From Azolla caroliniana (Eukaryota; Plantae; Polypodiophyta): a stretch of DNA of 64,000 bases. Shown here piece by piece: positions 11,657-62,105 of the stretch; position 1 is the first letter of the stretch; each line of letters starts with the position of its first letter. Where the stretch lies: NCBI GenBank assembly GCA_043228905.1, contig JBHGNT010000001.1:15934001-15998000 (forward strand), given 5' to 3'. The notes below the pieces were generated by a model. The model ran no database searches. It had not been told where the DNA came from and was given only the letters and a program-made list of their open reading frames with translations. A program made the translations under genes and the position numbers.

Positions 11657-12723
11657 TGTCGTGAAGATTTTCGGTGATAGTGTGGAAGTTGTAAGGAACA
11701 TTCGAAATCGAGTGTGGCTCTTCTCACGAGAAAAACAAAACAATAATAGTGAAGATAATATTTTGAATAATTTTAATATCTAGGTACAAAAAGATGGAGG
11801 TCTTCAAGAGTTTTCAAATGTGCTATACCACATAAAAAATGGATATCTAAATGACAAGTTATGTGGGAGTGAAGTATGAGAAAGATGAAGAGAAAAATAA
11901 AACTATAAGATATCCCACATAGACAGGACAAACAAGGACCCTACAATATATAAAGTAGAGCAAAAGCTATTATCTTTGTGTCTATGTGTGGAGCATAGAG
12001 AGTTCAAGGTGAATTGAACAAAGTTAATATGATGAATGAGCGTGGCCTAGCTATTGGTTTTGGCCAACCGAAACTGGACCGGCGACAGAGCCGATGAGCT
12101 GGCGAGATGGCGACCGAATAGATATATAAATAAATATATGTATACACATATATATATATACACAAGGAGTGCAAGTGTGGATTTGAACCTTGCACCTCCA
12201 AGTTAAGAGTTTATAAGCTTACCACTAAGCCAAGACATTTTCTTAAAATCATATTTTTATCATTATAACTTTACATGAGAGCTAAAATGAGTGACGTGGT
12301 TATCATGCACCACATATAATACATGAGTGCCAAATGGCAAACATGCATTTTATGCATGTCTTGTACCCTCAAATGCATGAGGGCATCTATAAAAGAGGGG
12401 AGGAAAAAGATGAAAAGGGAAGGTAAGATTTTTATCAAGAACTTTGTGCTTTGATACCAAAATTAAAATTAAGAAGAAAATTCATTATCCAATTGATGTA
12501 TTAATCTTTCTCTCAATCTAAAGTCAAGCGTTTATCTTATCTCAATCTCTCTCTCTATTTCAATCTCTCTCAATCTTAAGTCAAGCGTTTCATCTCAATT
12601 TCTCTCTCTCAATGTATCTTAAATACTTTCTCGCTAAAGCTTGTGTAAATGTCAAATCCTTCCGGTCCAGAACCCCGACGGTTCCACCTCACGATCCGCT
12701 CGTAGTGACGGATCTTCACGACA
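11657..12723 (+). repeat. 5' LTR (1067 bp) of Trp-primed gypsy copy 1
   Basis: 12-bp terminal inverted repeat, TATA-like CTATAAAAGAGG at about 12387, followed by the PBS. Confidence 0.92.
12168..12239 (-). promoter_or_regulatory. tRNA-like Pol III A/B-box module in LTR U3 (further copies at about 19148-19220 and 20101-20173)
   Basis: Minus strand reads TGGCTTAGTGG TAAGC...CTCTTAA CTTGGAGGTGCAA GGTTCAAATCC. It has a perfect D-stem (GCTT/AAGC), a Lys(CTT)-like anticodon loop and tRNA-like A-to-B spacing, but no acceptor stem. Confidence 0.7.
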
Positions 12724-12731
12724 TAATAAAG

Positions 12732-12749
12732 TGGTGAACCCAACGTGAA
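12732..12749 (+). promoter_or_regulatory. PBS complementary to tRNA-Trp (1 mismatch)
   Basis: TGGTGAACCCAACGTGAA versus the plant tRNA-Trp 3' end TTCACGTCGGGTTCACCA (recalled). Confidence 0.8.
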
Positions 12750-12795
12750 AGAGGCGGCCGGAAGGATCAAGTCAAGGATCAACCGATACTTGGAG

Positions 12796-15700
12796 ATGAC
12801 ATCCTCAAGCAATCAAGCAGGAGACTTCGAAAGGATGATGTTGATCGTCGAACAAATGATGAGATCTCGAGACAACGATGCGAGCATGGAGAAGGCCGTT
12901 GACCGTGTCATAGAGCTTGAGGGCCAATTTGATGGGAGGAATGTTACGAAGTTCCTTAATGCATACAAAAGGGAGATGAATCAAAGAGACATGTCTGAAG
13001 CACGACAAATCACGAGTTTCAAAAGGGTGGTCGCCAACAACATCCAAAGACGCGTCATCGAGCTTCAAGAAGGTAAGACAACATGGTCTGAGTTTGAGAA
13101 AGCGATATTAGCAGAGTTCGTAACTGAAGACTCAACGAGGATGACTCGACATGCCCTGATGAAGTGGATAGAGAAGAAGAATAAGAAGATGAGCACCTCG
13201 AGGGTGTATGACGAATTCGACCAAATTTTTAGTCGTCTCCCCAACATGGAAGAAGTGTTACTTGAGGAGGACAAGACTTTGTACTTCTTGAAAGTTTTGG
13301 ACATGAAGGATGGACGAGAGTTGGGGACTCTCCTTGAAGATGATACCCAAGCGAATGGGCTTATGGCAGACTGGATTGCGGTGAAGCGGGCGTGCAATAG
13401 GCTCGACAAGCATCGCCAATGGGTTGATGACACCGACTTGGCGGGATCAACTGTCACGGAGAAAACGAGAGAACCGAAAGCAGTTGAGTTGCCCAAACAA
13501 AGTAACCCCGAAGAAAAGAAGATTGATGACAACATCATCGAAGAACTGGCGAAGAAGTTCGAGATGGTTACGCTAGCCAACATGAATCGTCGGGGGCCCA
13601 AAGGAAAAGAACCCTTTAGATGCGTGTGGTGCAATGGCATGGACCACATGAGAAGAGATTGTTCGAGCCTTCGAGACGCCATTCGACAAAATATCGTGTA
13701 CATAGATGACAACATGATCTGCTCGAGCGAGACTAGAAGACCCCTACGGGTGAATTTCGGAAGAGGAGGAATGAAGAAAGCTATGGAGGATGCCGATGTG
13801 AATCATGTGGATGTGATGCACTATGCTGCGTCGGCCGGAATAAGAGTTTGGAAAGACAAGACTGAAGCTGCTAGAGCGGGAGCAAAGTTTTGGACTTCCG
13901 TTCTCGAATATGAGAAGAAGGGAAAAGTCACTTTGAACGAAGTAGAGCTTGCGGATCGAAGTGTACAAAGTATAACCGGATGGTCGGATCTGGTGGATGA
14001 CAACACCATACTCGTGGAGGTGATGTGCGACAACCACGAGGTGTTTGTCGAAGAAAAGAGAAAAAGAATAGAAGAGCAAGGCCCATCAAAAAGGCATGAA
14101 ACAAGGAATGTGAAAAAGAAGAAAGATGCGGAGACAAGTCGAGCTTTACAAATGGAGGAACGAGAATCAAGCCGAAAAGGAGAGCTGAGCATATGAGTCG
14201 AAGAAACCGTATGACCCATGAAGGTTGGTGTCGAAGACCCCGTTCGGAGGACAAGGGCTATGCCTACCTATAAGCTAAGGTCGGACATAGAGCAAATGAT
14301 GGACCTAAAGAAGATTCTCGAAGAACGTGTTCTTGATAGCCACGTGACTTTGTCCTTGAGGGAATTTCTTGGCATTATGAAGGAGTTCCATGACACAATC
14401 GTGGACCTTGTAAAGAGAAAAAGACAACAATCGGACCAGCAAGAAGAGAAGCCGCAAAAAGCAAAAATGAATGCCATAACGATGGCGAGAGACGAAGTCG
14501 ATGAAGATATGGTGGATAGCCACTATACTCGACCTCATTGGGCACGAGCGACAACGGAGACGCCGGTGAAGATCGGGGAGAAGAAAGAGACCGTGGTAGC
14601 CTTGATCGACCATGGCTCGGAGATCAACCTCATGTCAACCGATTTCTACAGAAAAGGAAGATGGCCAATCAATACAAATCACGGATGGAAGATTCGCGCG
14701 GCAACAAAGACTACAGAGGACTTGTACGGAGCTTGTCCCAATGTTAAAGTCACGATCGGGGATGTGGAGATGGATCAACACTTCTTCGTGCAAGAATCGG
14801 CGTCGCATCCTATCATCCTAGGACAACCGTATATCACATCATCTCGGATGGAGACCAAAGTGTTCGATAATGGAGCAGCCTTCGCACGAATAAAGAGTCT
14901 TGACAACCAAAGATCGGTCCAATTCCTAACGGTGCGAGCTAATCATGAAAGAAATCGAGATAGTCTTGGAGAGACATGCTTGAGAGACATGGGAAGGCTT
15001 TCGCATTTTTCCCACGAGAAATCGGATGTGCTGATCCAAGGACGATAGAACCAATGGTGATCTTCATGGTGCCGCATGTGCCTTGGAATTTGAAACTGAT
15101 ACTGGTTCCAAGAGCACACCTACCGCAGTTGATCGAGCTCTTAAAGGAGAAGGTGAATATGGGAATTCTGGAACCGTCGAATGCTCCTTATTCCAATAGG
15201 TAGTTCACAGTGCCGAAGAAGAATGGATCATTACGATTCATCCAAGATCTTCAACCCGTCAACAAGATGACAATTAGAAATGCCAAAATCGGCCTGAGCG
15301 TGGACGAATTTGCCGAGGCGTTTGCGGGCCGGTCCATCTACTCCATTGGCGATCTCTACTCTGGATATGACCAATTCCAATTGGCGATCGACAGATGTGA
15401 CATTACAACCATGAGGACTCCGATCGGGCTTGTGCGGATGTGTACCTTACCTCAAGGCGCAACGAACTCGGTGGCTCATATGGTGAATGCCATGAACAAA
15501 GTCTTGAAGGATTGTACCCCGGACATCACAATGCCATCGTTGGATGATATTCCGATAAAAGGATGTTCAGATGAGGAGAAAGATGAATCGAAAGATAAGG
15601 AAGGCTGTAGAAAGTTTGTCACGGATCATATGAAAGATTGTGAGAAGGTGCTTCAAAGGCTCGAAGATGCGAATTTGACATTTTTGGGAGAAAAATCCGC

Positions 15701-16227
15701 ATTTGGGCAACCAGGGATCTTGGTGGTAGGTCACTTGTGTGGAGCATATGGCCGGAAGCCTTGGCCATCCAAAGTGAACACAATCCAAGACATGAAAGAA
15801 GAATGCGAAAACCAAACGGAGGTTCAAAGGTGTTAGGAAACAGGTCCCTCCGGATGGGAAGTGAGAAGAACAGTACTGATGAGCAAACTCAGCCGAGGCC
15901 GATAGGCCGAGGCCGAAACCGGATGAGGAGTACCCGGCAACGGAAGACCCGGTGAGAGCCGGATGACGAGTACCCGACAACGGAAGATCCGGTGAGAACC
16001 GGATGACGTGTGCCTGGCAAGCGCCGGATGATGCAGGCCCAGTGAGGAGTGCTCAACGGATGAAGGGACATATTCGTAAATATGTTTTCTGAGAGTCCAT
16101 CGTGGCTATATTTGTAAATAGCCGAAAAGTCATATTAGTATAAATATGACTTAGGGCAAACTTAGTGAGTGTTGTTTTTGTTTTTTTTAGTCATTCTTTT
16201 TGGGCGCAAGATTAGAGCGCAACAGTG

Positions 16228-16275
<48 letters not shown>

Positions 16276-18558
16276 ACGAAGAGTTCGTATCTCTGTTGTA
16301 ACCGCCGCCTGTGGCGAAGACAGTGAAAAAGAGGTTGTTGCCTTTGTGTTCATCTATTGTATATTGTTACATAGTGATAGTTAGCAATCAGTGGACTGCC
16401 GTGGTTTTTCCCGTGTTTGGGTTTTCCACGTAAACATCCTGTGTACTCTTCTCTCCATTGTGTCATGCATTCATTCCCATTTTTTGTGTTTGATTCTAAG
16501 CTTTGGTTGTGGCCGAGCGTTGTTCATCGGGAGCGTGTAGTTCTTGACAAAAGGTTCCTTGGAGCATACGCATTTTATCATATCTAGATTCCTCACTACG
16601 CTCATGTCGCCGAACCGTTATATGGACTACTAAAGAAAATAATGAAGTTCGAATGGTGAAGCGAGCATACAAACGCGATGCGAAGATTGAAGAAACTACT
16701 TCTTGAAGCTCCAGCACTAAGAAAGGCCGACTATACCGAAGGAAAGCTAATTTATGTGACTGTAGATACAACCCCAACCGGAATCGGGTGGGTCATCAAC
16801 CAAGAAGGAGATTTAAATAATGCGCGGTATGCCATCCGGTTCAGAGCAAAAGTTCTCAGCAAATGGCAACAAAGATACGCCCAAGTCACACGGGAACTTT
16901 GGGGTATTGTGTCGGCAGTGAAGACGGACAAAGATTACATGATCGGGTCGGAAGTAATAATAGAGACAGATTGTCTCCCAATCCTTGGAATGATATCGGG
17001 ATGTGCGACCCCAGATTTAGCTATGCTAAGGTGGATTGCCTATATCAAGTCTTTAAGCCCAGAGATCCGTCACATTGCAGGTAAGAAGAATGCCATGGCT
17101 GATATGCTGTCAAGGGCAAGATTTGAAAGTGAAAGTGACATGGTTTCGGAAGATGAAGACGTCACCCTCGACTTCTTCAAGATGGCTTGATTATTGGCGG
17201 AAGACAAGGACACGATAACCTTCCACGCCTTCAATGAGGACGTGTACGAAGGGGAGTGGTTACTAATCGGCAGATTCCGAAGATCAATGATGACGGATGC
17301 TTCGTTGACGAAGGAGGAGGCCCTACGAATCCGAAAGAAAGCTTACCAATACTTCTTGAAGGGAGGATTCCTTTGGCGACACCCAAAAAGGACAGGAATA
17401 CCACGTCGAGTGGTGGTGAAGAAACAAGAGCAAGTGAAGCTGATGACCGAATTCCACGAGAGTGCTTGGGCAGGTCATAGAGGAACATGGGCAACCTTCG
17501 AAAAGTTGAAGGAAAAGTAGTGGTGGCCGAGCATGTACAAAGATGTACTCTATTTCCTGTCCACATGCGAAATTTGCCAAGTACATTTGAATATACGTCA
17601 TCGTGATGAGTTATGACCAACATACCTCACCATACACTTCAAATGGATGGTGGATCTGGTCTCGATGCCAATGGGAGTGGGACAAATGAAGTACTTAGTG
17701 CTGGCAAGAGAAGACTTGACAAATCAAGTAGAAGGACGGGCCTTGACAAATAAGACGACATCAACTGTTTGCAAATTTCTACTTGAAGAGGTTGTTTGCC
17801 GATACGGATGTGTGGGGAAGATAGTCGCCGACCAAGGGGAGTTGGATGCACACGAAACAACGAACCTTTTCGAACGACTAGGCGTGAAGCTCTCCCTCAC
17901 GACTACCTACAATCCGGAAGCGAATGGGAAGATCGAGCAAGGCCATGTACCTATTGTCAAAGCCATTGTACGAGCATGTAACGGACGAGTCGGGAATTGG
18001 CCACGACTATTTCCCTATGCCTTGTGGGCCAACAAAACGACACACAACTCAATGACAGGGTATATGCCAACAGAGCTTATGTATGGACAAAAGCCGGTGA
18101 TGCCCATTGAAAGGACGATCAGGACGATCACCTCATGGGTAGCGATACCATGGGAGAACGAGATGAGCCGGGAAGAGTTATTAGCGACACAGATAAGGCA
18201 ACTTGAAAGGAGACCTGAAGATCTAGAAAAAGCGCGAAAGATAATGGAGGCAGCCTGAGTAAAGAACAAAATTCGGTTCGACAAGACGCATCGACTACAT
18301 CCCAAGAAGATCAAAGAAGGGGATTGGGTATTGGTCTACGACAATAGCCTTGACAATCAACACAGTACACCAAGGAAGTGCGCAAGAAGATGGTCTGGAC
18401 CATATGTGGAGCTAGATGGATCAAGGTTGGCCATACCCATTGCAGGAAAAAGAGTAAAGATTTTCAAGAAAAGACAAGATGAGAATCCTAACCTCGATCA
18501 CCTCGACGATGAAGATAGTAGGACAGAAGTAAATGAGGACGTGGAGGATTCATACTGA
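12796..18558 (+). pseudogene. Disrupted gag-pro-pol of Trp-primed gypsy copy 1
   Basis: gag with CVWCNGMDHMRRDC, protease ALIDHGSEINLM, RT LPQGATNS...LDDIPIKG, then RH and INT fragments. It has multiple stops, a deletion across the pro/pol junction (about 14970) and a solo LTR insertion. Confidence 0.88.
15831..16549 (+). repeat. Copia solo LTR (719 bp), related to the LTRs at 42525 and 51771
   Basis: TGTTAGG...TTGACA termini, TSD AAAGG on both sides. The host frame EVQR|FLGA is restored on removal. It shares GGTCCCTCCGGATGGGA and GGCTATATTTGTAAATAGCC with the copia E LTR. Confidence 0.92.
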
Positions 18559-18630
18559 TCACTACTACCGAAATCTCACTTTCTCTCTTCTTGGCACATA
18601 CCGGAGGACATGCGGTTTGGTTGGGGTGGA

Positions 18631-19536
18631 TGTCGTGAAGATTTTCGGCGATAGTGTGGAAGTTGTAAGGGACATTCGAAATCGAGTGTGGCTCTTCTCA
18701 TAAGAAAAACAAAACAATAATAGTGAAGATAATATTTTGAATAAGTTTAATATCTAGGTACAAAAAGATGGAGGTCTTCAAGAGCTTTCAAATGTGCTTT
18801 ACCACATAAAAAACGGATATCTAAGTGACAAGTTATGTGGGAGTGAAGTATGAGAAGGAAGAAGAGAAAAATAAAACTGTGAGATATCCCACATAGACAG
18901 GACAAACAAGGACCCTACAATATATAAAGTAGAGCAAAAGCTATCATCTTTGTGTCTATGTATGGAGCATAGAGAGTTCAAGGTGAATTGAACAAAGTTA
19001 ATATGATGAATGAGCGTGGCCTACTAGTGGATTTGGCCAACCGAAACCAGACCGGCGATAGAGCCGGTGAGCCGGCGACATCCGGCGAGACGACGACCGG
19101 ATAGATATATAAATAAATATATGTATACACATATATATATACACAAGGAGTGCAAGTGTGGATTTGAACCCTAGACCTCCAAGTTAAGAGTTTATAAGCT
19201 TACCACTAAGCCAAGACATTTTCTTAAAATCATATTTTTATCATTATAACTTTACATGAGAGCTAAAATGAGTGACATGATTATCATGCACCACATATAA
19301 TACATGAGTGCCAAATGGCAAACATGCATTTTATGCATGTCTTGTACCCTCAAATGCATGAGGGCATCTATAAAAGAGGGGAGGAAAAAGATGAAAAGGG
19401 AAGGTAAGATTTTTATCAAGAGCTTTGTGCTTTGATACCAAAATTAAAATTAAGAAGAAAATTCATTATCCAATTGATGTATTAATCTTTCTCTCAATCT
19501 AAAGTCAAACATTTATCTTATCTCAATCTCTCTCTC
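18631..19536 (+). repeat. First 3' LTR copy (lacks its 3' end) of Trp-primed gypsy copy 1
   Basis: Starts TGTCGTGAAGAT after the PPT region. It breaks in a (TC)n tract and jumps back to the PPT-proximal sequence. Confidence 0.88.
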
Positions 19537-19579
19537 TTCTTGGCACATACCGGAGGACGTGCGGTTTGGTTGGGGTGGA

Positions 19580-20620
19580 TGTCGTGAAGATTTTCGGCGA
19601 TAGTGTGGAAGTTGTAAGGAACATTCGAAATCGAGTGTGGCTCTTCTCATAAGAAAAACAAAACAATAATAGTGAAGATAATATTTTGAATAAGTTTAAT
19701 ATCTAGGTACAAAAAGATGGAGGTCTTCAAGAGCTTTCAAATGTGCTTTACCACATAAAAAACGGATATCTAAGTGACAAGTTATGTGGGAGTGAAGTAT
19801 GAGAAGGAAGAAGAGAAAAATAAAACTGTGAGATATCCCACATAGACAGGACAAACAAGGACCCTACAATATATAAAGTAGAGCAAAAGCTATCATCTTT
19901 GTGTCTATGTGTGGAGCATAGAGAGTTCAAGGTGAATTGAACAAAGTTAATATGATGAATGAGCGTGGCCTACTAGTGGATTTGGCCAACCGAAACCAGA
20001 CCGTCGATAGAGCCGGTGAGCCGGCGACATCCGGCGAGACGACGACCGGATAGATATATAAATAAATATATGTATACATATATATATATATATACACAAG
20101 GAGTGCAAGTGTGGATTTGAACCTTAGACCTCCAAGTTAAGAGTTTATAAGCTTACCACTAAGCCAAGACATTTTCTTAAAATCATATTTTTATCATTAT
20201 AACTTTACATGAGAGCTAAAATGAGTGACATGGTTATCATGCACCACATATAATACATGAGTGCCAAATGGCAAACATGCATTTTATGCATGTCTTGTAC
20301 CCTCAAATGCATGAGGGCATCTATAAAAGAGGGGAGGAAAAAGATGAAAAGGGAAGGTAAGATTTTTATCAAGAGCTTTGTGCTTTGATACCAAAATTAA
20401 AATTAAGAAGAAAATTCATTATCCAATTGATGTATTAATCTTTCTCTCAATCTAAAGTCAAGCATTTATCTTATCTCAATCTCTCTCTCCATTTCAAACC
20501 CTCTCTCAATCTATCTTAAATACTTTCTCACTAAAGCTTGTGTAAACGTCGAATCCTTCCGGTCCAGAACCCCGGCGGTTCCGCCTCATGATTCGCGGGT
20601 AGTGACGGATCTTCATGACA
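19580..20620 (+). repeat. Second, complete 3' LTR (1041 bp) of Trp-primed gypsy copy 1
   Basis: TGTCGTGAAGAT...ATCTTCATGACA followed by TSD ACGT; offset 949 bp from the first copy. Confidence 0.9.
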
Positions 20621-40680: not shown

Positions 40681-41761
40681 TGTCGTGAACATCCATTACT
40701 ATGTGTGGATCGTGAGGCGGAACCACTGGGGTCCTGGACCGGAAGGATTTGATGTTTGCACTAACTTTAGCGAGAAAGTATTTAAGATAGATTGAGAGAG
40801 ATTGATATGACGAAAGAGAGATATTGAGGTAAAGATTGAACTTTTAACTCTTAGATTTAAGAGAGAAGATACATCAACAATAGGATTACAAGATTCGTAC
40901 TTTTCCCAAATTTTTCATTAGTCCCATTTGCTTGATTCCTCCACTCTTTTATAGATGCCCCCATGCATATGGTGCATGTGAGGGTGCAAGACATGCACGT
41001 AATGCATGCAATGCATGATTGCCATGTCATCATCTAAGCTCTCATGTATGAGAATTTACATCTAAAAGTATAATGATAAAAATATAGCTTTAAAGTAAAT
41101 GACTTTGCTTGGTGGTAAGTCTATTGCCTCCTATCTTGGAGGTGCAAGGTTCAAGCCTTGCCCACATCCATTTTGAAACACAAAATACTACTAAGCTTTT
41201 GGTTTTGTATTTACATCGAAAATATTCAAAACACCATGCACCGACCGATCCGTCTGTCTGGTCTTGTTTGTCCTGACTGGTTCAATCCGATCCTGTCCGT
41301 TGCCCTCGCTGTCTCGTCAACTCCGTCTGGTCGCCATCCGGTTCCGGTTGGCCAAAACCTTTACAAGTAGTTAGGCCACACCCATTCATCCGGTTAGTAT
41401 AGCTCAAGTGACCTTAAACATTCCATGATCCACTCATAATCACAAAGTAATAGATTTTGGCCCTACTTATATACTCTAGGATCCTTATTTGTCCTGTCTA
41501 TGTGGGATATCTCGTAGTTTTGTTTTTTCTCTTCTTCTTCTCAAACTTCATATTCATATAACTTGATATTTCGTTGTCCGTTTCAAATGTAGTAAAGTAC
41601 ATTCGGAAGCTCTTGAAGACCTCCATCTTTCCGTACCAAGATATTAAGCTAATCTAAAATAGTATCTTCACTATTATTGTTTCATGTCTTGTGTGAAGAA
41701 CCACACTCGATTTTGTACATTCCTCGCAATTTTCACACCATTGCTGAAAATCTTCACGACA
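40681..41761 (-). repeat. Solo LTR (1081 bp) of the Trp-primed gypsy family
   Basis: TGTCGTGAA...TTCACGACA termini, 4-bp TSD ACGC on both sides, reverse-complement homology to 11657-12723. Confidence 0.93.
41098..41170 (+). promoter_or_regulatory. tRNA-like Pol III A/B-box module in the solo LTR (antisense to the LTR)
   Basis: TTGCTTGGTGG at 41105, GGTTCAAGCC at 41148, T-arm-like CAAGG/CCTTG pairing and TTTT at 41171. Confidence 0.6.
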
Positions 41762-46563: not shown

Positions 46564-46844
46564 TGTCATGATATGGCAAGACTCGAACCCATGACCTTAG
46601 GTTATATGGGTCGAGCTCTTGACCATTAGACCATCTATTGTAATACGTAGGATATTATTTTCATTTACATTTTATTATTCCAGATTTCTCTGGAACATTC
46701 TAGAAGCTTCAGGATTACTCCTGAAAACACTATAAAAGAGGGCACTAGGCATTATGTTGAACCAAATTGGTTCAACGCCAGTCTTAAGCCTTTTAGCCAC
46801 CGTTGTATATTCTCTTCATATAATAAATATCTTTCTTATCATCA

Positions 46845-46878
<34 letters not shown>

Positions 46879-46982
46879 TTCTCGCTCACTTCTTCCTTCT
46901 CTCGAAGAAGTTCCACACCTCTCATAGTACTAATCCTTCGTTTAGTACTAATTCCTTCTCTGTCTCAGTACTGTTCATGACA
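46564..46982 (+). repeat. 5' LTR (419 bp) of the chromovirus
   Basis: 8-bp terminal inverted repeat, TATAAAAGAGG at 46731, (TC)n tract. Confidence 0.9.
46568..46640 (-). promoter_or_regulatory. tRNA-like Pol III A/B-box module at the start of the chromovirus LTR
   Basis: Minus strand TGGTCTAATGG...AAGGTCATG GGTTCGAGTC. The T8-to-T54 distance equals that of a standard tRNA. Confidence 0.7.
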
Positions 46983-46984
46983 GT

Positions 46985-46996
46985 TTGAACCAATTT
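46985..46996 (+). promoter_or_regulatory. Self-priming PBS
   Basis: TTGAACCAATTT is the exact complement of AAATTGGTTCAA at 46764-46775, about 33 nt after the TATA box. There is no TGG tRNA-type PBS. Confidence 0.8.
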
Positions 46997-47055
46997 CCCT
47001 ACCCTCTGTCTCTCTCATTTCCTACTAATCTTTTATTCCTCTTTTCTTTCATCCC

Positions 47056-48207: not shown

Positions 48208-48246
48208 GTCCAGCCAAAATAGGAGCCGTTTGGTTGGACAGCCCTA
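48195..48246 (+). other. -1 ribosomal frameshift signal (gag/pol)
   Basis: G TTA AAC in gag phase, 6-nt spacer, stem GTCCAGCCAAA/TTTGGTTGGAC. Loop TAGG can pair with downstream CCTA, and the -1 frame is open into pol. Confidence 0.75.
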
Positions 48247-51200: not shown

Positions 51201-51770
51201 TTGGAGCGGTTACGCAAGATACAAGCGGATTTATCTACTCATCTCCAGCAAGCTCAACAAACACACAAGGTCTACGCGGATCGTCATCGACTTCCATCTA
51301 GTTTTAATATTGGAGATCGGGTGTGGTTACTACGACGACACATCAAGACTACTCGCCCATGTGAGAAGTTGGATTATCGGCGATTAGGTCCTTTCCGTAT
51401 TATTGGAAAGATTAATGATGTTGCTTTTCGTCTCGATCTACCTCCTCAACTTCGGATACATCCGGTGTTTCATAGTTCTCTCTTCGAACCCTACCACGAG
51501 AGCACCATCCCAGAACGTCTTATCCAACCTCCACCCCCGATCGAGCTTGAAGATGGGCCGGAGTACGAGGTTGCCGCCATTCTTGATTCCAAGATTGTTC
51601 GCAACAAGCTCTACTATCTAGTCGATTGGCTAGGCTATAGTCCTAGCGAACGTACTTGGGAACCGATCGAGAATGTAACCAATGCTCGTGCTCTTCTTGA
51701 AGACTTCCATCGTCAATATCCACACAAACCGGGTCCTCAATCCAAGACGACTCGTGACACTCGTCGTTTT
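48200..51770 (+). pseudogene. Chromovirus pol (PR-RT-RH-INT-chromodomain) with one premature TGA at 50349
   Basis: ORFs 48234-50351 and 50436-51812 are in the same frame. Confidence 0.9.
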
Positions 51771-52387: not shown

Positions 52388-52418
52388 AAGTGGTATCAGA
52401 GCGACGGTAACACAGAAA

Positions 52419-54825: not shown

Positions 54826-55632
54826 TGTCGTAGTGTAGGTTGCACACTATGTGGAAATTATATTTTTGTCCCTCCGGATAGAGAATGGAGTGCTCGGTGA
54901 GAACCGGAAGAAAACGGCATACCGGCAAGGAGGAAAAACGGCATACCGGCAAGGAAGAAAACGGCATACCGGCAAGGAAGAGCCGGATAAAGAGACATAA
55001 ATGTAAAAAGAAAGGAAATACTCACTACTGCGCAGGGCGTGATTCGAACTCTGCACCTTCACGTTGACAAACCCCAACCTTACCATTACATTAACTTATC
55101 TTAAGTGTTTTAAATATAGATTTAATACGTATAAGACCTTTATTTATGCATACCTTTATTAAAAGGTAAATCGTGTATTTTTTTAATATATGAAAAAGAA
55201 AAACACGAGACACTAAAAATAACTCATGCACATCTAGCGTGCATGAGCCCTATACTTAGGAAATAAAAAAAAAGCATCACATGCACATTTAGGGGACATG
55301 AACACTTTTTGTAAAAAAGCATGAAGCCATGCTTAGCTCTTCCATCTTTATATAAGGAGGAGAAAAATATGTATATGGTTGTTGATTATTTGGATTAAGA
55401 ATTAATCAATACAAAAATTATTCGTGGGATTCACGATTTATACGTCTACTTCTCTCTTAACACCCTAAGTACCAATTAATATAGTATACTCGTGTGATTC
55501 ACGAGTTTCTTATCTTTCTCTTTGCTATTTACTCATAATTAATCTCTATCTCACGAACTTCTTTCTCCTAGTCCAAGACCTCTGTGGTTCCCACCCGACT
55601 CACGCAACGATCCGGAGCCGAAAGGCACGACA
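54826..55632 (+). repeat. 5' LTR (807 bp) with 3 x about 23-bp repeat AAAACGGCATACCGGCAAGGA
   Basis: TGTCGT...ACGACA termini, TATATAAGG at about 55350. Confidence 0.95.
55028..55100 (-). promoter_or_regulatory. tRNA-like Pol III A/B-box module in LTR U3 (copy at about 61501-61573)
   Basis: Minus strand TAATGTAATGGTAAG...AAGGTGCAG AGTTCGAATC, with the same spacing as the 12168 module and a T5 run about 20 nt downstream. Confidence 0.6.
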
Positions 55633-55636
55633 CAGT

Positions 55637-55670: not shown

Positions 55671-57710
55671 ATGGAGGCTCAACAAGCTAACAATATGATG
55701 GCGATGTTCGAACGGATGCTTCAAGAACAACGCACGATGTCGGAGATTTCGGCATCAGTAGAGCGGCTCGTGCAACGCAACGGGCAATTTAATGGTAAGG
55801 ATGTGTCGCGATATTTGCAGGACTACAAGGCGGAGATGCTCCGGTGCCGGGCTTCGGAAGGACTACAAGTGACATCCTTTAACCGGGTGGCGACCGACGG
55901 GCTTCAAGGGAGTATCCACGGGTTGCAACAACAAAATCCGACGTGGGAAGCATTCGAAGAGGCGTTAAAGACCACGTTTGCCATCGAGGACTCCTCCAAG
56001 GCAACGCGGAGGGGATTCGAGGATTGGGTGGAAACGTCAGGTAAGGGGCTGAAGGTCCTCGAAGTGTTTTCGACATTCGAAAGTCGGTTCGGGAGGTTGT
56101 CCGCGAGAGATCAAACTATTCTTGCACCGGACAAAGTCATCATGTTTTTGCGAGCTGTGGACGTCCGGGACCGGAAAGATCTCGGAGTGCTTCTTGAGGA
56201 CACGACCACCGAAAGCGGCCTCACCGAAACATGGGAAAGCGTGCGGGATATCGTCGCGCGTTACACGAAGAGGGGGCAATGGCTTGCCAACGAAGAAAAG
56301 AGGGTTTCGGAACCGATTCCGAAACCGAGAACGGGACTGGAAGACCATCAACCGAGGGCTCGGGAGATTACGGCCGAGAAGGGAGTCGACGCGTCTACGG
56401 TGGAGCAGCTGCTGAAGGAGATGGAGAATCTAAAGATCGCGATGGTGAAGAAGTCGGATGACCGTCCCACAAGCTCCAAATATACGGATCGACGGTGCAT
56501 ATGGTGCGATAGCGCCGAACACGATCGGAGGGATTGCGACGACCATAAGGAGGCGCTACGACGGGATCTCATCTACTACGAGGGAAACCGGATTCATTCG
56601 ATGGACTCTCGGAAGCCACTCCGACCGAACTTCCGGAAAGGCGGCATGAAGAAGGTGCTCGAGGAGGAGTTAGCGGCAAGAAGCAACTATGCGACAACCG
56701 CGGGAATATGTGTCGGGGAGTCATCGGGAGCGAAGGCGTCTTTCTGGCCGGAGGTGCTAGGAAACACCGAGAAAACCGACTCCAACGATATCCGAAACAC
56801 CGCGGAAGGCGTCCGGGAAGCTACGGGATGGGAGTGCCCTGTCGACAAGAATAGCATATACGCCCTGTGTCAATTACATGAGGTGTATGTGGACGAGAAA
56901 CGACGGCGCACGGAGGATGCGGCCGGACCATCGAAGATACCGGAAAGCTGGAACTCCGGAGGTAAGGGAAAAGAAAAGGCGACTCCGGCATTCAAGCTCG
57001 CCTCGGACATAGAACAACAAACCGACTTGAAAAGAGTGTTCGAGGAAAGAATCTTGGATAGCCGGGTAGATTTTTCGCTGCGGGAACTACTCGGAATAGC
57101 GAAGAAGGAGTTTCACGATCTTCTCGTGGATCTCGTGAAAAGGAAGAGACAAAGTACGGAGGAAAATGCTCCAAGGGTGAATGCAAATACCGTTTCAATG
57201 AACAACACCGAAGTGGAAGGCGAAATTCCGAACTCCCACTATACAAGGCCACACTGGGCACGTGCGACTACGGAGACTCCGGTCCGAATCGGCAACATCA
57301 AAGAACCCGTGCTAGCATTGATTGATCACGGATCGGAGATCAACTTGATGTCCAAGGAGTTCTACCGAAAGGGGAAGTGGCCTATAAACACCAACCATGG
57401 ATGGAAGATTCGGGCAGCCACGAAAACGACAGAAGACCTATTTGCGGCTTGTCCGGATGTGACGGTAAAGATCGGGGATGTAGAAATTGACCAAAATTTC
57501 TTTGTGCAGGATGAGGTTTCACATTCTGTCATCCTCGGCCAACCCTTTATCACGGCTTCACGGATGGAGACGAAGGTGCTCGATAGTGGTGCGGCTTTTG
57601 CGCGAATTCGGAGCCAAAACGGAGGGAAATCCGTCCAATTCCTAACGGTGCCGGCAAATCACGAAAGGAACAAGAGGGAACTCTTGTCCCAAGTGAGAAT
57701 GGATTTTTAA
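55671..57710 (+). CDS. Gag-protease ORF of the Trp-primed gypsy
   Basis: First ATG after the PBS. Zinc knuckle CIWCDSAEHDRRDC and aspartic protease ALIDHGSEINLMS lie before the stop. Confidence 0.9.
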   Translation: MEAQQANNMMAMFERMLQEQRTMSEISASVERLVQRNGQFNGKDVSRYLQDYKAEMLRCRASEGLQVTSFNRVATDGLQGSIHGLQQQNPTWEAFEEALKTTFAIEDSSKATRRGFEDWVETSGKGLKVLEVFSTFESRFGRLSARDQTILAPDKVIMFLRAVDVRDRKDLGVLLEDTTTESGLTETWESVRDIVARYTKRGQWLANEEKRVSEPIPKPRTGLEDHQPRAREITAEKGVDASTVEQLLKEMENLKIAMVKKSDDRPTSSKYTDRRCIWCDSAEHDRRDCDDHKEALRRDLIYYEGNRIHSMDSRKPLRPNFRKGGMKKVLEEELAARSNYATTAGICVGESSGAKASFWPEVLGNTEKTDSNDIRNTAEGVREATGWECPVDKNSIYALCQLHEVYVDEKRRRTEDAAGPSKIPESWNSGGKGKEKATPAFKLASDIEQQTDLKRVFEERILDSRVDFSLRELLGIAKKEFHDLLVDLVKRKRQSTEENAPRVNANTVSMNNTEVEGEIPNSHYTRPHWARATTETPVRIGNIKEPVLALIDHGSEINLMSKEFYRKGKWPINTNHGWKIRAATKTTEDLFAACPDVTVKIGDVEIDQNFFVQDEVSHSVILGQPFITASRMETKVLDSGAAFARIRSQNGGKSVQFLTVPANHERNKRELLSQVRMDF

Positions 57711-57764
57711 AGCGGACTGTTGCGGAGTGGGGAAGTGATAGTCCGAGAAGCCCTGATACCCCAC
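57701..57764 (+). other. -1 frameshift signal (gag-pro/pol)
   Basis: G GAT TTT directly before TAA. Stem 1 CGGACTGT/ATAGTCCG, stem 2 GTGGGG/CCCCAC. The -1 frame is open for 48 codons to the ATG at 57845. Confidence 0.75.
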
Positions 57765-60700
57765 ACAGGAAGAAAAGTCTCGGAGCAAAACAAGTACGAA
57801 TCGGCCCGGATGGGGCATCTACGTACACGGCCGTAACCGGAGGAATGAAGAAACAATACCGACAAGTGGAGGATAAGTTACGGTCGGCATCAATAATAAA
57901 AGAAGACGAAGAAATCGTGGGAGTGATCGAGGAAGTGTTCTATGGGAATACACTACAACGGCTTGAAGAGCTTGCAGAAGATAAAAGCCAAGGGAACCGG
58001 GTAGTCCCGGTGGAATCGGTCGAGATGTACGAGATCGTTGCGAAAATGGGGCCGGATGCGCTCCGCAAAGAAGAAGCAATGGTAAGTACGAAATACAAGA
58101 CCGTGGAGAAGAAGGTGAAACCGGCCGCGGGACCACTACCCGCCGATAGCGAACAAAAGAAGAAAGAAGTCTCGGGAGATCCGACACTTCGGAAGTCCGT
58201 GGATATCGGACATGCCTTCACAGATGAGACCCGGAAGGAACTTCGGATCGGTGGAGGTGGGTTCCTCTTACAAGAAGAAGAAAAACGGTTTCGAGAGATG
58301 TTGGAGCAACATGGCAAAGCATTCGCGTTCACATCGAGGGAGATCGGATGCATTGATCCAAAGATAGTGGAGCCGATGGTGATTTTCACGATTGATCATG
58401 TACCGTGGAACCTGAAGCCGATTCCGGTGCCACGGGCGCATATTCCGAAAGTCATCGACTTGCTCAAGGAGAAGGTGGCGATGGGGATTCTAGAGCCATC
58501 AAGTGCTCCGTACTCAAATCGATGGTTTACGGTTCCGAAGAAGAATGGGTCACTCCGATTCATCCAAGACTTGCAACCGGTGAACAAGGTCACGATCCGG
58601 AACTCGGGAGTCGGTCCGATAGTGGACGAATTCGCGGAAGCTTTTGCCGGACGTGCGATATACTCCATCGGGGACCTATACTCGGGGTATGACCAATTCC
58701 AACTAGCCGTGGAGAGCCGAGACATCACTACCATGCGGACACCGATAGGACTAGTTCGAATGTGCACACTACCACAAGGAGCGACAAACTCGGTTGCACA
58801 TATGATGAACGCAATGAACAAGGTGCTTCGAGATTGCATTCCGGAGATAACGATGCCGTTTCTAGATGACATTCCGATGAAAGGATGCGCGGTGGAAGAA
58901 AAAGATGAGACTATGGATGATCGGGGATGCCGAAAGTTCGTGGTCGACCATATTCATGATTGCGAGAAAGTGTTGCGAAAGCTAGAAGATGTGCACCTAA
59001 CACTTTCCGGGGAGAAATCGGCATTCGGGCAAGAAGAAATATTGGTGGTCGGACATCTATGTGGACCCTACGGCCGAAGACCGTCACCAACAAAGATCGA
59101 TGCGATTCAAGCTATGAAGGAAGTATGTGAGTCAACATCGGAAGTCCGAAGGTTTCTGGGTGCGTGTGCATTCTATCACATATGGATTCCGCACTATGCA
59201 CATATAGCGGACCCGCTCTATCACTTGTTGCGGAAAGGTAAGAAATTCGAGTGGAAACCGGAACACACTAAAGCCATGAGGAAGCTCAAGAAGACACTAT
59301 GGAGGGCGGAATCACTTAAGAAGCCAAGCTACGAGCGGCCAATCATAGTAACGGTTGATACAAGTCCAACCGGTATCGGGTGGGTCATCAATCAAGCCGA
59401 CTCGGATGGTTCGCGGTATCCGATCCGATTTGGAGCAAAGGTCCTCAACGAAAGGCAACGCGGATATGCACAAGTCAAAAGAGAGTTGTGGGGAGTCGTG
59501 TCGGCGATAAAATCGGATCGGGATTATTTGATCGGAGCTGAAGTGGTGATCGAGACGGATTGTCTTCCGATACTCGGGATGATGCGGTGTTGTACGATAC
59601 CGGATGTGGCTATGCTAAGGTGGATTGCATATGTCAAGTCACTTAATCCGGAGGTTCGACACATCTCGGGGAAGGACAACGCGGTAGCGGACATGTTATC
59701 GAGGGCGCGGTTTGAAGACGACATAACCGAATCAGATAATGAAGAAGTTTCCGAAGACTACTTCACGTCAGAACACATATGCCGAGTGAACGTGATCCGA
59801 GAATTCCGGGAAGAAGAATACGAGGGGGAAACCTTGATGATCGGGAAGATGCTACAAGAGGTCGAGGATTCAACCAATGATAAAGAAAGGAGAGCCGAGA
59901 TCCGAAGGAAGAAGAGGCAAGTCCAAAAGTTCTTCTTGGAAAACGGTTTAATATGGAGGACGCCGAAAAGACCGGATGGGATACCACTTCGAGTAGTCGG
60001 GACGAAAGAGCAACGAAACCGGATAATGTCCGAGTTCCACGAATCCGATTGGGCTGGACATCGAGGAACATGGGCAACTTTTGTGAAAATCAAGCAAAGA
60101 TATTGGTGGAAGAACATGTATAAAGATGTCGCGGAGTTCACAGAAAGCTGCGAGAAATGTCAAGTCTACTCCGGGGTCCGACACCGAGATGAGCTGCATC
60201 CGACATTCTCACCGACAATCAACTTCAAGTGGATGGTCGACATTGTAGCTATGCCGACCGGGATTGGACAAAAGAAATACTTGGTGTTAGCTCGAGAAGA
60301 TCTCACAAACCAAGTTGAAGGTCGAGCGCTTCGGAGGAAAACGTGTGCCGCGGTGTGCCAATTTCTTTTGGAAGAAGTGTTTTGTAGGTACGGCTGCGTA
60401 GGACAAGTGATTGCGGACCGGGGAGAACTCGACTCGGACAAAGCTAGGGGATTCTTCGCCAAACACGGAGTTCGGTTAACGTTGACAACGGCCTACAATC
60501 CGGAGGCCAACGGGAAGATCGAACGAGGACATAGTCCGATCGTGAAAGCACTTGCGAAGGCATGCGACGGAAGGGTGAAGGATTGGCCACAAATGCTTCC
60601 GTATGCACTATGGGCGGATCGGACGACGCATAGCTCCGTGACCGGTTACATGCCGGCAGAACTCATGACCGGACAAGCACCGGTAATGCCAACGGAAACC

Positions 60701-61312
60701 GCAATCGCGACATGGACAATACTACCGTGGAAGGAAGAGATGAGCCGGGAAGAACTACTAGCGGTCCGGATACGACAACTGGAGGGAAGACCGAAAGATG
60801 TAGCGGAAGCGTCACGCCGACAACAAGAAGCACGGTTCCGGAACAAAAGCCGGTTCGACACAAAGCACCGACTACGACCGAGGAGGATTGAAGAAGGAGA
60901 TTGGGTGATCGTCTATGATAGTAGCTTGGACCATCAACATACAACGATGCGGAAATTCGCGAAAAGGTGGTTCGGGCCGTACGAGGTTCGGAAGGTCTTC
61001 GACAACGGGACGTACCGACTGTCCGAGTTGGATGGAACAATACTACGAGTGCCTATAGCCGGGAAGCGGGTGAAGATTTTCAAGAAGCGGACCGACGACA
61101 AACCTTATGTGATCCAAGTCGAGGCCGACAACGAGGAGCAATCGGACGAAGACCACAATGATGCGGGAAGCGAAGAAAGTGGATTACAACTCATAGTCGA
61201 CATAAGGGGAGAATCGGAGGAAGCTTCGGATGAAGACGGATACGAAGAATCAAGAACTTCGGCACATACCGGAGGATGTGCGGGTTTGGAGGGGGCGAGT
61301 GTCGTAGTGTAG
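57701..61312 (+). CDS. Pol (RT-RH-INT) of the Trp-primed gypsy, probably reached by -1 frameshift
   Basis: LPQGATNS, FLDDIPMKG, VTVDTSPTGIG, GHRGTWAT, ADRGELD and YNPEANGKIERGH. No stops; ends inside the 3' LTR. Confidence 0.92.
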   Translation, partial: GFLKRTVAEWGSDSPRSPDTPHRKKSLGAKQVRIGPDGASTYTAVTGGMKKQYRQVEDKLRSASIIKEDEEIVGVIEEVFYGNTLQRLEELAEDKSQGNRVVPVESVEMYEIVAKMGPDALRKEEAMVSTKYKTVEKKVKPAAGPLPADSEQKKKEVSGDPTLRKSVDIGHAFTDETRKELRIGGGGFLLQEEEKRFREMLEQHGKAFAFTSREIGCIDPKIVEPMVIFTIDHVPWNLKPIPVPRAHIPKVIDLLKEKVAMGILEPSSAPYSNRWFTVPKKNGSLRFIQDLQPVNKVTIRNSGVGPIVDEFAEAFAGRAIYSIGDLYSGYDQFQLAVESRDITTMRTPIGLVRMCTLPQGATNSVAHMMNAMNKVLRDCIPEITMPFLDDIPMKGCAVEEKDETMDDRGCRKFVVDHIHDCEKVLRKLEDVHLTLSGEKSAFGQEEILVVGHLCGPYGRRPSPTKIDAIQAMKEVCESTSEVRRFLGACAFYHIWIPHYAHIADPLYHLLRKGKKFEWKPEHTKAMRKLKKTLWRAESLKKPSYERPIIVTVDTSPTGIGWVINQADSDGSRYPIRFGAKVLNERQRGYAQVKRELWGVVSAIKSDRDYLIGAEVVIETDCLPILGMMRCCTIPDVAMLRWIAYVKSLNPEVRHISGKDNAVADMLSRARFEDDITESDNEEVSEDYFTSEHICRVNVIREFREEEYEGETLMIGKMLQEVEDSTNDKERRAEIRRKKRQVQKFFLENGLIWRTPKRPDGIPLRVVGTKEQRNRIMSEFHESDWAGHRGTWATFVKIKQRYWWKNMYKDVAEFTESCEKCQVYSGVRHRDELHPTFSPTINFKWMVDIVAMPTGIGQKKYLVLAREDLTNQVEGRALRRKTCAAVCQFLLEEVFCRYGCVGQVIADRGELDSDKARGFFAKHGVRLTLTTAYNPEANGKIERGHSPIVKALAKACDGRVKDWPQMLPYALWADRTTHSSVTGYMPAELMTGQAPVMPTETAIATWTILPWKEEMSREELLAVRIRQLEGRPKDVAEASRRQQEARFRNKSRFDTKHRLRPRRIEEGDWVIVYDSSLDHQHTTMRKFAKRWFGPYEVRKVFDNGTYRLSELDGTILRVPIAGKRVKIFKKRTDDKPYVIQVEADNEEQSDEDHNDAGSEESGLQLIVDIRGESEEASDEDGYEESRTSAHTGGCAGLEGASVVV

Positions 61313-62105
61313 GTTGCACACTATGTGGAAATTATATTTTTGTCCCTCCGGATAGAGAATGGAGTGCTCGGTGAGAACCGGAAGAAAACGGCATACCGGC
61401 AAGGAGGAAAACGGCATACCGGCAAGGAAGAAAACGGCATACCGGCAAGGAAGAGCCGGATAAAGAGACATAAATGTAAAAAGAAAGGAAATACTCACTA
61501 CTGCGCAGGGCGTGATTCGAACTCTGCACCTTCACGTTGACAAACCCCAACCTTACCATTACATTAACTTATCTTAAGTGTTTTAAATATAGATTTAATA
61601 CGTATAAGACCTTTATTTATGCATACCTTTATTAAAAGGTAAATCGTGTATTTTTTTAATATATGAAAAAGAAAAACACGAGACACTAAAAATAACTCAT
61701 GCACATCTAGCGTGCATGAGCCCTATACTTAGGAAATAAAAAAAAAGCATCACATGCACATTTAGGGGACATGAACACTTTTTGTAAAAAAGCATGAAGC
61801 CATGCTTAGCTCTTCCATCTTTATATAAGGAGGAGAAAAATATGTATATGGTTGTTGATTATTTGGATTAAGAATTAATCAATACAAAAATTATTCGTGG
61901 GATTCACGATTTATACGTCTACTTCTCTCTTAACACCCTAAGTACCAATTAATATAGTATACTCGTGTGATTCACGAGTTTCTTATCTTTCTCTTTGCTA
62001 TTTACTCATAATTAATCTCTATCTCACGAACTTCTTTCTCCTAGTCCAAGACCTCTGTGGTTCCCACCCGACTCACGCAACGATCCGGAGCCGAAAGGCA
62101 CGACA
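61300..62105 (+). repeat. 3' LTR (806 bp) of Trp-primed gypsy copy 2
   Basis: Direct repeat of 54826-55632. Confidence 0.95.

What the first reader, a model, noticed from the sequence alone, without database searches (positions are those of the whole stretch)
12168..12239. Antisense tRNA-shaped Pol III promoter module built into the U3 of Trp-primed gypsy LTRs
Seen: six LTRs of this lineage (12168, 19148, 20101, 41098, 55028, 61501) carry an A-box-like motif (TGGCTTAGTGG, TTGCTTGGTGG or TAATGTAATGG) and a B-box (GGTTCAAATCC, GGTTCAAGCC or AGTTCGAATC). The spacing is the same and tRNA-like in each, the orientation is always antisense to the element, and the position is always upstream of the TATA box. 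The module is kept between LTRs that otherwise do not align by eye (11657 vs 54826). The boxes and an AGGTGCA linker persist while the anticodon and acceptor stems do not pair. Established: A/B boxes recruit TFIIIC, tDNAs act as chromatin barriers in yeasts and mammals, and Cassandra TRIMs carry 5S Pol III sequence in their LTRs. Inference: this is a captured tDNA or SINE head retained as an insulator or anti-silencing device, or as a divergent Pol III unit. I do not know of a description of this arrangement.
Basis: partly seen in the sequence, partly recalled or inferred. Interest (0 to 1): 0.85.

Follow-up and report, generated by a model that had tools for sequence, protein, structure and literature searches.

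The report
Outward-facing tRNA promoters in moss LTRs
Two unrelated groups of jumping genes, likely from a moss, carry the two promoter boxes of a tRNA gene inside their end repeats, facing away from their own promoter; the boxes likely bind the tRNA-gene factor TFIIIC and would help keep that promoter open, which is untested.

Summary
Six LTRs (three LTR types of Phygy-like gypsy elements) carry an antisense A-box/B-box pair 43 nt apart, upstream of the TATA box. A textbook scan finds 7 pairs in the window against 0.13 by chance. The seventh is new: the same arrangement in the LTR of an unrelated, abundant, predicted self-priming Tcn1-like chromovirus.

The boxes vary less than their neighbours within family A (1 of 22 against 17 of 40 positions, p=0.0013; not significant in Tcn1) and across families, while the cloverleaf is lost. 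The module is not lineage-wide: intact in 6 of 21 LTR groups, absent from 13. Some LTRs also carry sense copies downstream of TATA, so copies face away from the Pol II promoter on either side. I found no sign of a free SINE.

Best reading (0.5): a captured tRNA-type promoter kept as a TFIIIC/TFIIIB site that shields or opens the LTR promoter. No binding or RNA data exist. tRNA-derived boxes in LTRs are already described (Helenus TRIMs, 2024), so this is a new variant. The scan noted Helenus elements and one internal antisense capture in a fungal Gypsy, but not this arrangement.

The parts
12168..12239 (-). tRNA-shaped module in the 5' LTR of element A: A-box 12232-12222, B-box 12189-12179
   Evidence: family variation
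19149..19220 (-). module in the first, 3'-truncated copy of element A's tandem 3' LTR: A-box 19213-19203, B-box 19170-19160
20102..20173 (-). module in the second 3' LTR copy of element A: A-box 20166-20156, B-box 20123-20113
41098..41169 (+). module in solo LTR B (LTR on the - strand): A-box 41105-41115, B-box 41148-41158
55029..55100 (-). module in the 5' LTR of element C: A-box 55093-55083, B-box 55050-55040
61502..61573 (-). module in the 3' LTR of element C: A-box 61566-61556, B-box 61523-61513
46568..46640 (-). seventh module, at the 5' edge of a Tcn1-like chromovirus LTR: A-box 46633-46623, B-box 46589-46579 (no mismatch to consensus, spacing 44)
11657..12723 (+). 5' LTR of element A (TATA-like box at 12387)
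18631..20620 (+). tandem 3' LTRs of element A (18631-19537 truncated; 19580-20620); TATA-like boxes at 19368 and 20321
40681..41761 (-). solo LTR B with a 4-bp GCGT target duplication; TATA-like box at 40954
54826..55632 (+). 5' LTR of element C (TATA-like box at 55349); 99.9% identical to the 3' LTR; CCGG target duplication
61299..62105 (+). 3' LTR of element C
46564..46982 (+). 5' LTR of the Tcn1-like chromovirus (TATA-like box at 46730)
   Evidence: gag, pol and chromodomain downstream
46985..46996 (+). 12-nt site after the chromovirus LTR, complementary to 46764-46775 in the same LTR: predicted self-priming site, no tRNA PBS
12732..12749 (+). 18-nt primer-binding site of element A (tRNA-Trp assignment recalled; agrees with Phygy in PMC6317226)
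55637..55654 (+). 18-nt primer-binding site of element C
12486..12545 (+). decayed sense-oriented copy downstream of TATA in LTR A, recognised by eye as similar to better-preserved copies in L055 and L074; it does not score above the null by itself
40830..40888 (-). decayed sense-oriented copy downstream of TATA in solo LTR B (below the null maximum)
55671..61312 (+). open gag (DUF4100) and overlapping pol (RT, RNase H, integrase; no chromodomain hit) of element C: a protein-coding, recently inserted element

Best explanation
The LTRs carry the A and B boxes of a tRNA gene, antisense and upstream of their TATA box, and these boxes are likely kept as a DNA-level binding site for TFIIIC (and TFIIIB) that would shield or hold open the element's Pol II promoter. 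Shown: presence, spacing, orientation, box-specific conservation, loss of the cloverleaf, an AT-rich 5' flank, and occurrence in two unrelated gypsy lineages. Inferred: a tRNA gene or tRNA-derived repeat was captured into U3 more than once. One capture (type I: A, B, C, L001, L074, L080) then spread between Phygy families with or beside the promoter block. TFIIIC on the boxes would load TFIIIB on the AT-rich side, between module and TATA box, giving a nucleosome-poor boundary on the side that faces flanking heterochromatin. Sense copies downstream of TATA in some families would do the same on the other side. Any Pol III transcript would be a by-product. The device is optional, since most Phygy LTR groups lack it.
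For: 7 hits against 0.13 in the window and 14 against 0.2 (at most 1 mismatch) in 219 kb of loci. Across 11 representative modules, mean pairwise identity is A-box 0.66, B-box 0.76, variable loop plus T 5' strand 0.68, against spacer 0.37 and flanks 0.37 and 0.30. Within family A, 1 of 22 box positions varies against 17 of 40 spacer and flank positions (p=0.0013), and that one change stays within the consensus. Among 11 type-I copies the acceptor stem is 17% paired, so the boxes outlived the tRNA. AT content is 75-82% in the 40 nt before the module against 59-69% further up (12 modules); plant tRNA promoters average 72.5% (PMC3082873, passages). All antisense copies lie upstream and all sense copies with a visible TATA lie downstream of it (8:0 and 0:3 by LTR group, p=0.006; 5:0 and 0:2 by sequence type, p=0.048). 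The chromovirus module is a fixed part of a very abundant LTR family in four runs labelled as three organisms. TFIIIC-dependent barriers at tRNA genes and ETC sites are known in yeast and mammals (PMC12409998, passages).
Against: No ChIP, chromatin or reporter data, and no plant TFIIIC barrier was shown in what I read. The module is missing from 13 of 21 LTR groups, including the largest (12 LTRs), and has decayed in L009, a close relative of C. In Tcn1 the box-versus-rest contrast is not significant (2 of 22 against 27 of 148, p=0.38). Both variant tables were cut (11 and 3 rows not shown), and the B-box of A lies next to a skipped repeat. Box likeness between unrelated types is expected from separate captures even without selection. 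The AGGT variable-loop word and, in type I, an 8-bp hairpin around the B-box (89% paired, compensatory changes not above shuffles: 74 of 500) are conserved too, which TFIIIC binding alone does not explain. No conserved CAA or fixed-position TATA lies upstream. The orientation counts were grouped after seeing the data, and type-I groups share ancestry.
Confidence: 0.5

Rival explanations
1. Passenger relic: tRNA-derived pieces (SINE heads, Helenus-like LTR parts or tRNA genes near insertion sites) were picked up by U3 and hitchhike with a successful promoter block, with little or no function of their own.
For: Patchy distribution and decay in L009. Module-bearing LTRs sit on four separate branches of a quick gag tree and several share the promoter block, which fits U3 exchange. 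Two of the six loci scanned with Rfam have host tRNA genes or pseudogenes next to the LTR (L040, L020), a possible source.
Against: Box-specific conservation within family A and among type-I copies after loss of the stems; fixed 43-44 nt spacing; strict orientation by side; perfect boxes in an unrelated lineage. No target duplication or A-tail in 12 of 12 modules. Depth over the module is not above the rest of the LTR, so no large free SINE family is seen at 80% identity.
Confidence: 0.18
2. Divergent Pol III gene whose RNA matters: the module makes a short antisense transcript (decoy, small-RNA precursor or regulator of the LTR), as foamy viruses do from Pol III units in their LTRs.
For: Complete A/B promoter with an AT-rich 5' flank. 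A run of four T lies within 33 nt of the B-box in 10 of 15 modules printed (predicted RNAs 73-101 nt). Type-I copies fold a D-arm hairpin (82% paired) and an 8-bp hairpin (89%). SFV LTRs make Pol III miRNAs that depend on A and B boxes (PMC3993851, passages).
Against: The predicted length is not conserved (73-292 nt), covariation is not above controls, the hairpin is broken in both 3' LTR copies of A, and the sequence between the boxes is as variable as the flanks.
Confidence: 0.15
3. tRNA docking site on the genomic RNA: because the module is antisense, the element's RNA carries in U3 a stretch complementary to the D and T arms of a tRNA, which could hold the primer and bring both RNA ends together, as in the Ty3 bipartite PBS or HIV-1 U3-R.
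For: Position in U3 and antisense orientation are what this model predicts. In Ty3 the T and D arms of the primer pair with U3 (PMC5371799, passages). A tRNA-Lys3-like sequence in HIV-1 U3-R promotes strand transfer (title seen in reference lists; one sentence in PMC6468702). It would also explain the conserved AGGT word.
Against: The PBS is a full 18-mer (positions 17 and 18 fixed in 114 and 113 of 116 loci), so the primer's T-arm 3' half is already occupied. The modules match the primer's positions 59-72 at only 4-8 of 14, and all 16 have a purine at position 52, where stem pairing with the PBS-derived strand implies T in the primer. The Tcn1-like element has the best boxes but a predicted self-priming site. 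Sense copies cannot pair with tRNA. Docking does not need an AT-rich 5' flank.
Confidence: 0.12

Closest known systems
Helenus TRIMs / TRIMp3 (Kojima 2024, PMC10886601; parts 1-4 of 6 read, plus passages of the figure legends)
   Same: tRNA-derived sequence in LTRs, conserved around boxes A and B, not a functional tRNA; proposed origin by SINE insertion into an LTR; one plant case (Selaginella).
   Different: Helenus are non-autonomous, 311-1263 bp, and the boxes are proposed to drive the element's own transcription. The paper does not state orientation in words and argues that autonomous partners use Pol II LTRs. Here the hosts are 7-9 kb protein-coding elements with a TATA-like box, and the U3 copy points away from the element. 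The paper also says that 'not a few LTRs' in Repbase contain tRNA-like parts and followed up only the TRIMs, so some such LTRs may be catalogued without description; I did not read its supplements.
Cassandra (5S rRNA) and Ajax TRIMs (as described in PMC10886601)
   Same: Pol III internal promoter inside an LTR.
   Different: 5S (type 1) promoter, non-autonomous; Cassandra is transcribed from it.
Simian foamy virus Pol III miRNA units (PMC3993851, passages)
   Same: A/B-box Pol III units inside the LTR of an autonomous retroelement, beside a Pol II promoter.
   Different: The products are defined hairpins and miRNAs; here no conserved product is evident, and the unit has tRNA-gene geometry.
Ty3 bipartite PBS (PMC5371799, passages) and HIV-1 tRNA-Lys3-like U3-R sequence (Piekna-Przybylska et al., PMID 19966801; title and one citing sentence only)
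   Same: tRNA-complementary sequence in U3 of the genomic RNA.
   Different: Those match the element's own primer tRNA; these modules do not, and they also occur in a predicted self-priming element and in sense orientation.
tDNA and ETC-site chromatin barriers (PMC12409998, passages)
   Same: A/B or B boxes acting through TFIIIC at DNA level: the proposed mode of action.
   Different: Host loci in yeast and mammals; not carried by a mobile element, and not tested here.
Phygy and Tcn1 lineages of REXdb (Neumann 2019, PMC6317226; passages and one supplement row)
   Same: Host elements: Trp PBS, 4-bp NCGN target duplication, no chromodomain (Phygy); chromodomain and predicted self-priming (Tcn1).
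   Different: 'tRNA-like' does not occur in that paper's main text.

Membership tests
Helenus / TRIMp3 | tRNA-derived A/B boxes inside the LTR | tested here: met
Helenus / TRIMp3 | Non-autonomous TRIM, about 0.3-1.3 kb, no coding capacity | tested here: not met
   Element C is 7.3 kb with open gag and pol; element A spans 9.0 kb
Helenus / TRIMp3 | Pol III promoter placed to transcribe the element | tested here: not met
   U3 copies point away from the element in all 7 window cases; the sense copies in some relatives would fit
Functional tRNA gene | Cloverleaf; ARAGORN or RF00005 above threshold | tested here: not met
   best module 19.1 bits against gathering 29; acceptor stem 17% paired
tRNA-derived SINE (recent insertion) | Target-site duplication and A-rich tail | tested here: not met
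   0 of 12 modules exceed the shuffled maximum for flanking repeats; longest A run 3-5
tRNA-derived SINE (recent insertion) | Many copies outside LTRs | tested here: inconclusive
   Depth over the module is not above the rest of the LTR and no large pile of loose ends sits at the module borders in the rows shown. Contigs only, 80% identity, tables cut, no genome held. One decayed copy outside a Phygy LTR in L057
Type 2 Pol III promoter | A and B boxes at tRNA spacing | tested here: met
   43-44 nt in 16 of 16 curated modules
Type 2 Pol III promoter | Plant upstream elements (AT-rich or TATA near -30, CAA at -7 to -3) and a T-run terminator | tested here: inconclusive
   AT 75-82%, but no fixed TATA or CAA; four-T run 5-224 nt after the B-box
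Type 2 Pol III promoter / TFIIIC barrier | TFIIIC binding, Pol III transcription or barrier activity | not testable with these tools
   needs ChIP, stranded RNA reads or reporters
Bipartite PBS (Ty3 type) | U3 segments complementary to the element's own primer tRNA | tested here: not met
   4-8 of 14 matches to primer positions 59-72 deduced from the PBS; the D arm could not be compared because no host tRNA-Trp gene was held
Phygy (REXdb) | Trp PBS, 4-bp NCGN target duplication, about 7.7-10 kb, no chromodomain | tested here: met
   CCGG/CCGG (C), GCGT/GCGT (B), GCGT/ACGT (A); reference values; Pfam; C is slightly short at 7.3 kb; the Trp label of the PBS is recalled
Phygy (REXdb) | RT-RH-INT placement in the Phygy clade | not tested
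   no REXdb sequences held
Tcn1 chromovirus (REXdb) | Chromodomain and predicted self-priming | tested here: met
   PF00385; 12-nt complementarity between the post-LTR site and the LTR
Tcn1 chromovirus (REXdb) | RT placement with Tf1/Sushi | not tested
   only relatives at 41-66% identity were fetched; no tree

The most novel reading that the evidence does not exclude
Autonomous retrotransposons of two unrelated gypsy lineages in bryophytes have independently captured tRNA-gene promoters and use TFIIIC/TFIIIB as a portable chromatin boundary, on one or both sides of their Pol II promoter and always facing outwards, to stay active inside nested heterochromatin: an anti-silencing device made of host Pol III machinery, which would also scatter thousands of extra TFIIIC sites through the genome.
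Probability: 0.3. Interest if true: 0.8.

Novelty: new variant of a known kind. Interest (0 to 1): 0.58.

Why it matters
If the boxes work as proposed, they would be a cis-acting way for a retrotransposon to resist silencing by borrowing the Pol III assembly factors, and a natural, high-copy test of whether tDNA-type barriers exist in plants. One of the host families is very abundant, so its LTRs could be a large share of the genome's TFIIIC sites. Mosses allow targeted integration, so a B-box mutant reporter is a direct test. The finding also extends the Helenus idea from non-autonomous miniatures to protein-coding elements with a Pol II promoter.

Tried and rejected
No whole genome is held, so no genome-wide LTR library could be built. 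Viral contigs held no Phygy PBS pattern or RT relative. Run search: no RNA holder listed; run X22, a guessed RNA run, gave 3 partial contigs and X19 is probably DNA. None of this is evidence on expression. Rfam RF00005 could not be run through the genome search on these loci, so six loci were scanned directly.

The source tRNA could not be identified. Modules score poorly against the only two host tRNA-like genes held. The anticodon-loop position of family A reads like tRNA-Lys(CTT) and that of Tcn1 like Met, but these labels are recalled and untested. My first idea, that the module copies the primer tRNA-Trp, was rejected: only C resembles it (8 of 14).

Of 17 chromovirus relatives at 41-66% identity (likely mostly fungal), none has a hit with at most 2 mismatches; three 3-mismatch hits were seen, none in a mapped LTR, and the closest relative, L123, lacks the start of U3. 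Alignment A2 had wrong coordinates for one row and was not used. One search stopped at its last row (15 of 16 printed). The gag tree is a quick, unfinished search on partial sequences and is used only to show that module-bearing LTRs are scattered. Several apparent absences (L064, L042, L063, L029, L073, L055) are LTRs cut by other sequence and were left out of the count. The HIV-1 paper is not held.

Ten literature searches found no description of antisense tRNA-type boxes in the U3 of autonomous plant elements; most subscription papers and Repbase reports are outside the library.

Full report
Setting. The window is a nest of LTR retrotransposons. The reported LTRs belong to three insertions. 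Element A spans 11657-20620, with broken ORFs and a tandem 3' LTR. Solo LTR B lies at 40681-41761 on the minus strand. Element C spans 54826-62105, with LTRs 99.9% identical and open gag and pol. They have an 18-nt PBS, 4-bp NCGN-type target duplications and no chromodomain hit, which fits the Phygy lineage (Trp PBS 81%, NCGN; PMC6317226 supplement row). The only one of 20 gag homologs with an organism name is from the liverwort Riccia sorocarpa, at 36%. With a Tcn1-like chromovirus in the same window, a bryophyte host, probably a moss, is inferred. No genome is held.

Observation. A scan with textbook A- and B-box patterns, not trained on these sequences, gives 7 hits in the window against 0.13 in shuffles. 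Six are the reported ones, all with 43-nt spacing, antisense, and 150-255 nt upstream of a TATA-like box. None falls in the copia LTR pair at 28937/34004 or the gypsy LTR pair at 23173/37918. The six are three LTR types, and A and B are related (about 77% over their 5' part). A and C give no blastn hit, and the module is their best ungapped match (34-35 of 54 against at most 31). The AGGTGCA linker is in four of six copies. The modules are not tRNA genes.

A seventh module in an unrelated lineage. The extra hit (46633-46579, no mismatch, spacing 44) starts a few bases inside the 5' edge of the LTR (46564-46982) of a chromovirus with a chromodomain and a predicted 12-nt self-priming site. It is also antisense and 96 nt upstream of TATA. 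Contigs of four public runs, labelled as three organisms, step up in depth at the LTR edge, show PPT-like loose ends before it, and cover the module as deeply as the rest of the LTR (X4: 1.73 million against 1.60 million summed depth). So it is a fixed part of an abundant family. No variant is listed in its B-box, and the two A-box variants fit the consensus, but the contrast with the rest of the LTR is not significant (2 of 22 against 27 of 148). Seventeen more distant chromoviruses show no module.

Distribution in the Phygy-like lineage. I fetched LTRs by their end and PBS only, so without regard to the module: 122 loci of an estimated 310. Of these, 61 had at least 650 nt upstream, and for 35 I could place a 5' end, three of them with less certainty. 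With the three window LTRs they form 21 groups at 50% mutual coverage. An intact antisense module is in 6 groups (A/B/L037, C, L001, L074, L080, L059/L065 with two copies), or 5 of 20 without C. It has decayed in L009, a relative of C (A-box kept, B-box lost), is present only as sense copies in L039, and is absent from 13 groups, including the largest. A non-autonomous relative, L069, has two antisense copies in its other LTR. Module-bearing LTRs fall on four separate branches of a quick gag tree. Spacer similarity splits the modules into a type I (A, B, L001, L074, L080, more loosely C) and several types that share little beyond the boxes (L065, two in L069, Tcn1). This suggests more than one capture, plus spread or loss of type I.

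Orientation. Sense copies exist, in L065, L074, L055, L039, L029 and L112, with decayed traces in A and B. Where a TATA box is visible they lie downstream of it. Every antisense LTR copy lies upstream. Copies therefore face away from the Pol II promoter on either side (p=0.006 by LTR group, p=0.048 by sequence type; groupings made after seeing the data).

Conservation. Across 11 representative modules the A-box (0.66), B-box (0.76) and variable loop with T 5' strand (0.68) are conserved, while spacer (0.37) and flanks (0.37, 0.30) are not. Separate captures would give part of that for free, so the within-family test matters more. In contigs laid on LTR A, 1 of 22 box positions varies at 5% or more, against 17 of 40 spacer and flank positions (p=0.0013). 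Caveats: 11 rows were not shown, and a skipped repeat lies beside the B-box. Among 11 type-I copies the acceptor stem is 17% paired, the anticodon stem 45% and the T stem 69%. An alternative D hairpin (82%) and an 8-bp hairpin around the B-box (89%) form, without covariation above controls. The 40 nt before the module are 75-82% AT, as in plant tRNA promoters (PMC3082873, passages), but there is no fixed TATA or CAA. Predicted Pol III transcripts would be 73-292 nt.

Not a recent SINE. There is no target duplication or A-tail in 12 of 12 modules, and depth over the module does not exceed the rest of the LTR. An old SINE or Helenus-like origin is not excluded.

Mechanism. The pattern points to a DNA-level site: boxes and spacing kept, RNA fold and length not kept, an AT-rich side facing the core promoter, both orientations used according to side, and presence in an element predicted to use no tRNA primer. 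The most likely reader is TFIIIC, which at tRNA genes and ETC sites blocks heterochromatin spread and may keep DNA nucleosome-free (PMC12409998, passages; yeast and mammals). For elements that sit inside other elements, as all three intact contexts here do, such a boundary would be useful. This step is inference (0.5). The rivals are a passenger relic (0.18), a functional antisense Pol III RNA as in foamy virus LTRs (0.15; PMC3993851, passages), and tRNA docking in U3 as in Ty3 and HIV-1 (0.12; PMC5371799, passages). Docking fails the primer-match test as far as the PBS allows it.

Novelty. tRNA-derived A/B boxes in LTRs were described in 2024 as Helenus, in non-autonomous TRIMs, with the boxes proposed as the element's own promoter (PMC10886601, parts 1-4 of 6 read; supplements not read). 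That paper mentions further tRNA-like parts in Repbase LTRs without describing them. Ten searches found no report of the outward-facing arrangement in protein-coding plant elements. Passages of papers on REXdb, Tcn1 and Physcomitrium RLG1 expression that I saw do not mention it. Earlier notes of this scan show Helenus-type elements and one internal antisense tRNA-like capture in a fungal Gypsy on other DNA, but not this module.

New variant of a known kind; interest 0.58.

Noticed in passing
L040:1151-1223 and L020:2244-2315, 2614-2685, 2983-3042: A tRNA-Arg(CCG) gene lies about 200 nt from the 5' end of a Phygy-like LTR, facing away from it (L040). In L020 a tandem array of tRNA-like copies (370-nt period, read as initiator-Met-like from recall) lies next to another. 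ARAGORN found 1 gene in 50 loci and Rfam these hits in 2 of 6. Possible preference for insertion near tRNA genes, and a possible source of captures.
   Followed up: partly
L069:1-2866: Non-autonomous Trp-PBS element whose internal region reads as a low-complexity Ser/Thr-rich frame, with the same pre-PPT block as elements A and C and two different tRNA-type modules in its LTR.
   Followed up: partly
window 18573-18630, 19520-19579, 61264-61298, about 38785-38855: A conserved block of about 40-55 nt just before the PPT is shared by elements A and C and many relatives; it may be a packaging or plus-strand priming signal. A further copy near 38800 on the minus strand points to another related element there.
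   Followed up: no
window 18573-20620: Element A ends in a tandem of PPT plus LTR (970 nt, 98.5% identical), the first copy truncated in a CT-rich tract.
   Followed up: no
window 12260-12395 and L057, L065, L074: A CATG/TGCA-rich block just upstream of the TATA box is shared between LTRs whose other parts and gag genes differ, suggesting exchange of U3 promoter blocks between families.
   Followed up: partly
L051 and L075 LTRs: Arrays of AAACCCTAAT (telomere-like) repeats downstream of the TATA box in two module-less LTR groups: possibly a different chromatin-factor device.
   Followed up: no
window 46564-64000: Three-level nest: a Tcn1-like chromovirus interrupted by a copia element (from about 51769; repeat pair 100% identical over the 216 nt in view), itself interrupted by element C.
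   Followed up: partly
window 1-64000: CpG observed/expected is about 1 in most 2-kb bins of this repeat nest, so there is little CpG depletion.
   Followed up: no
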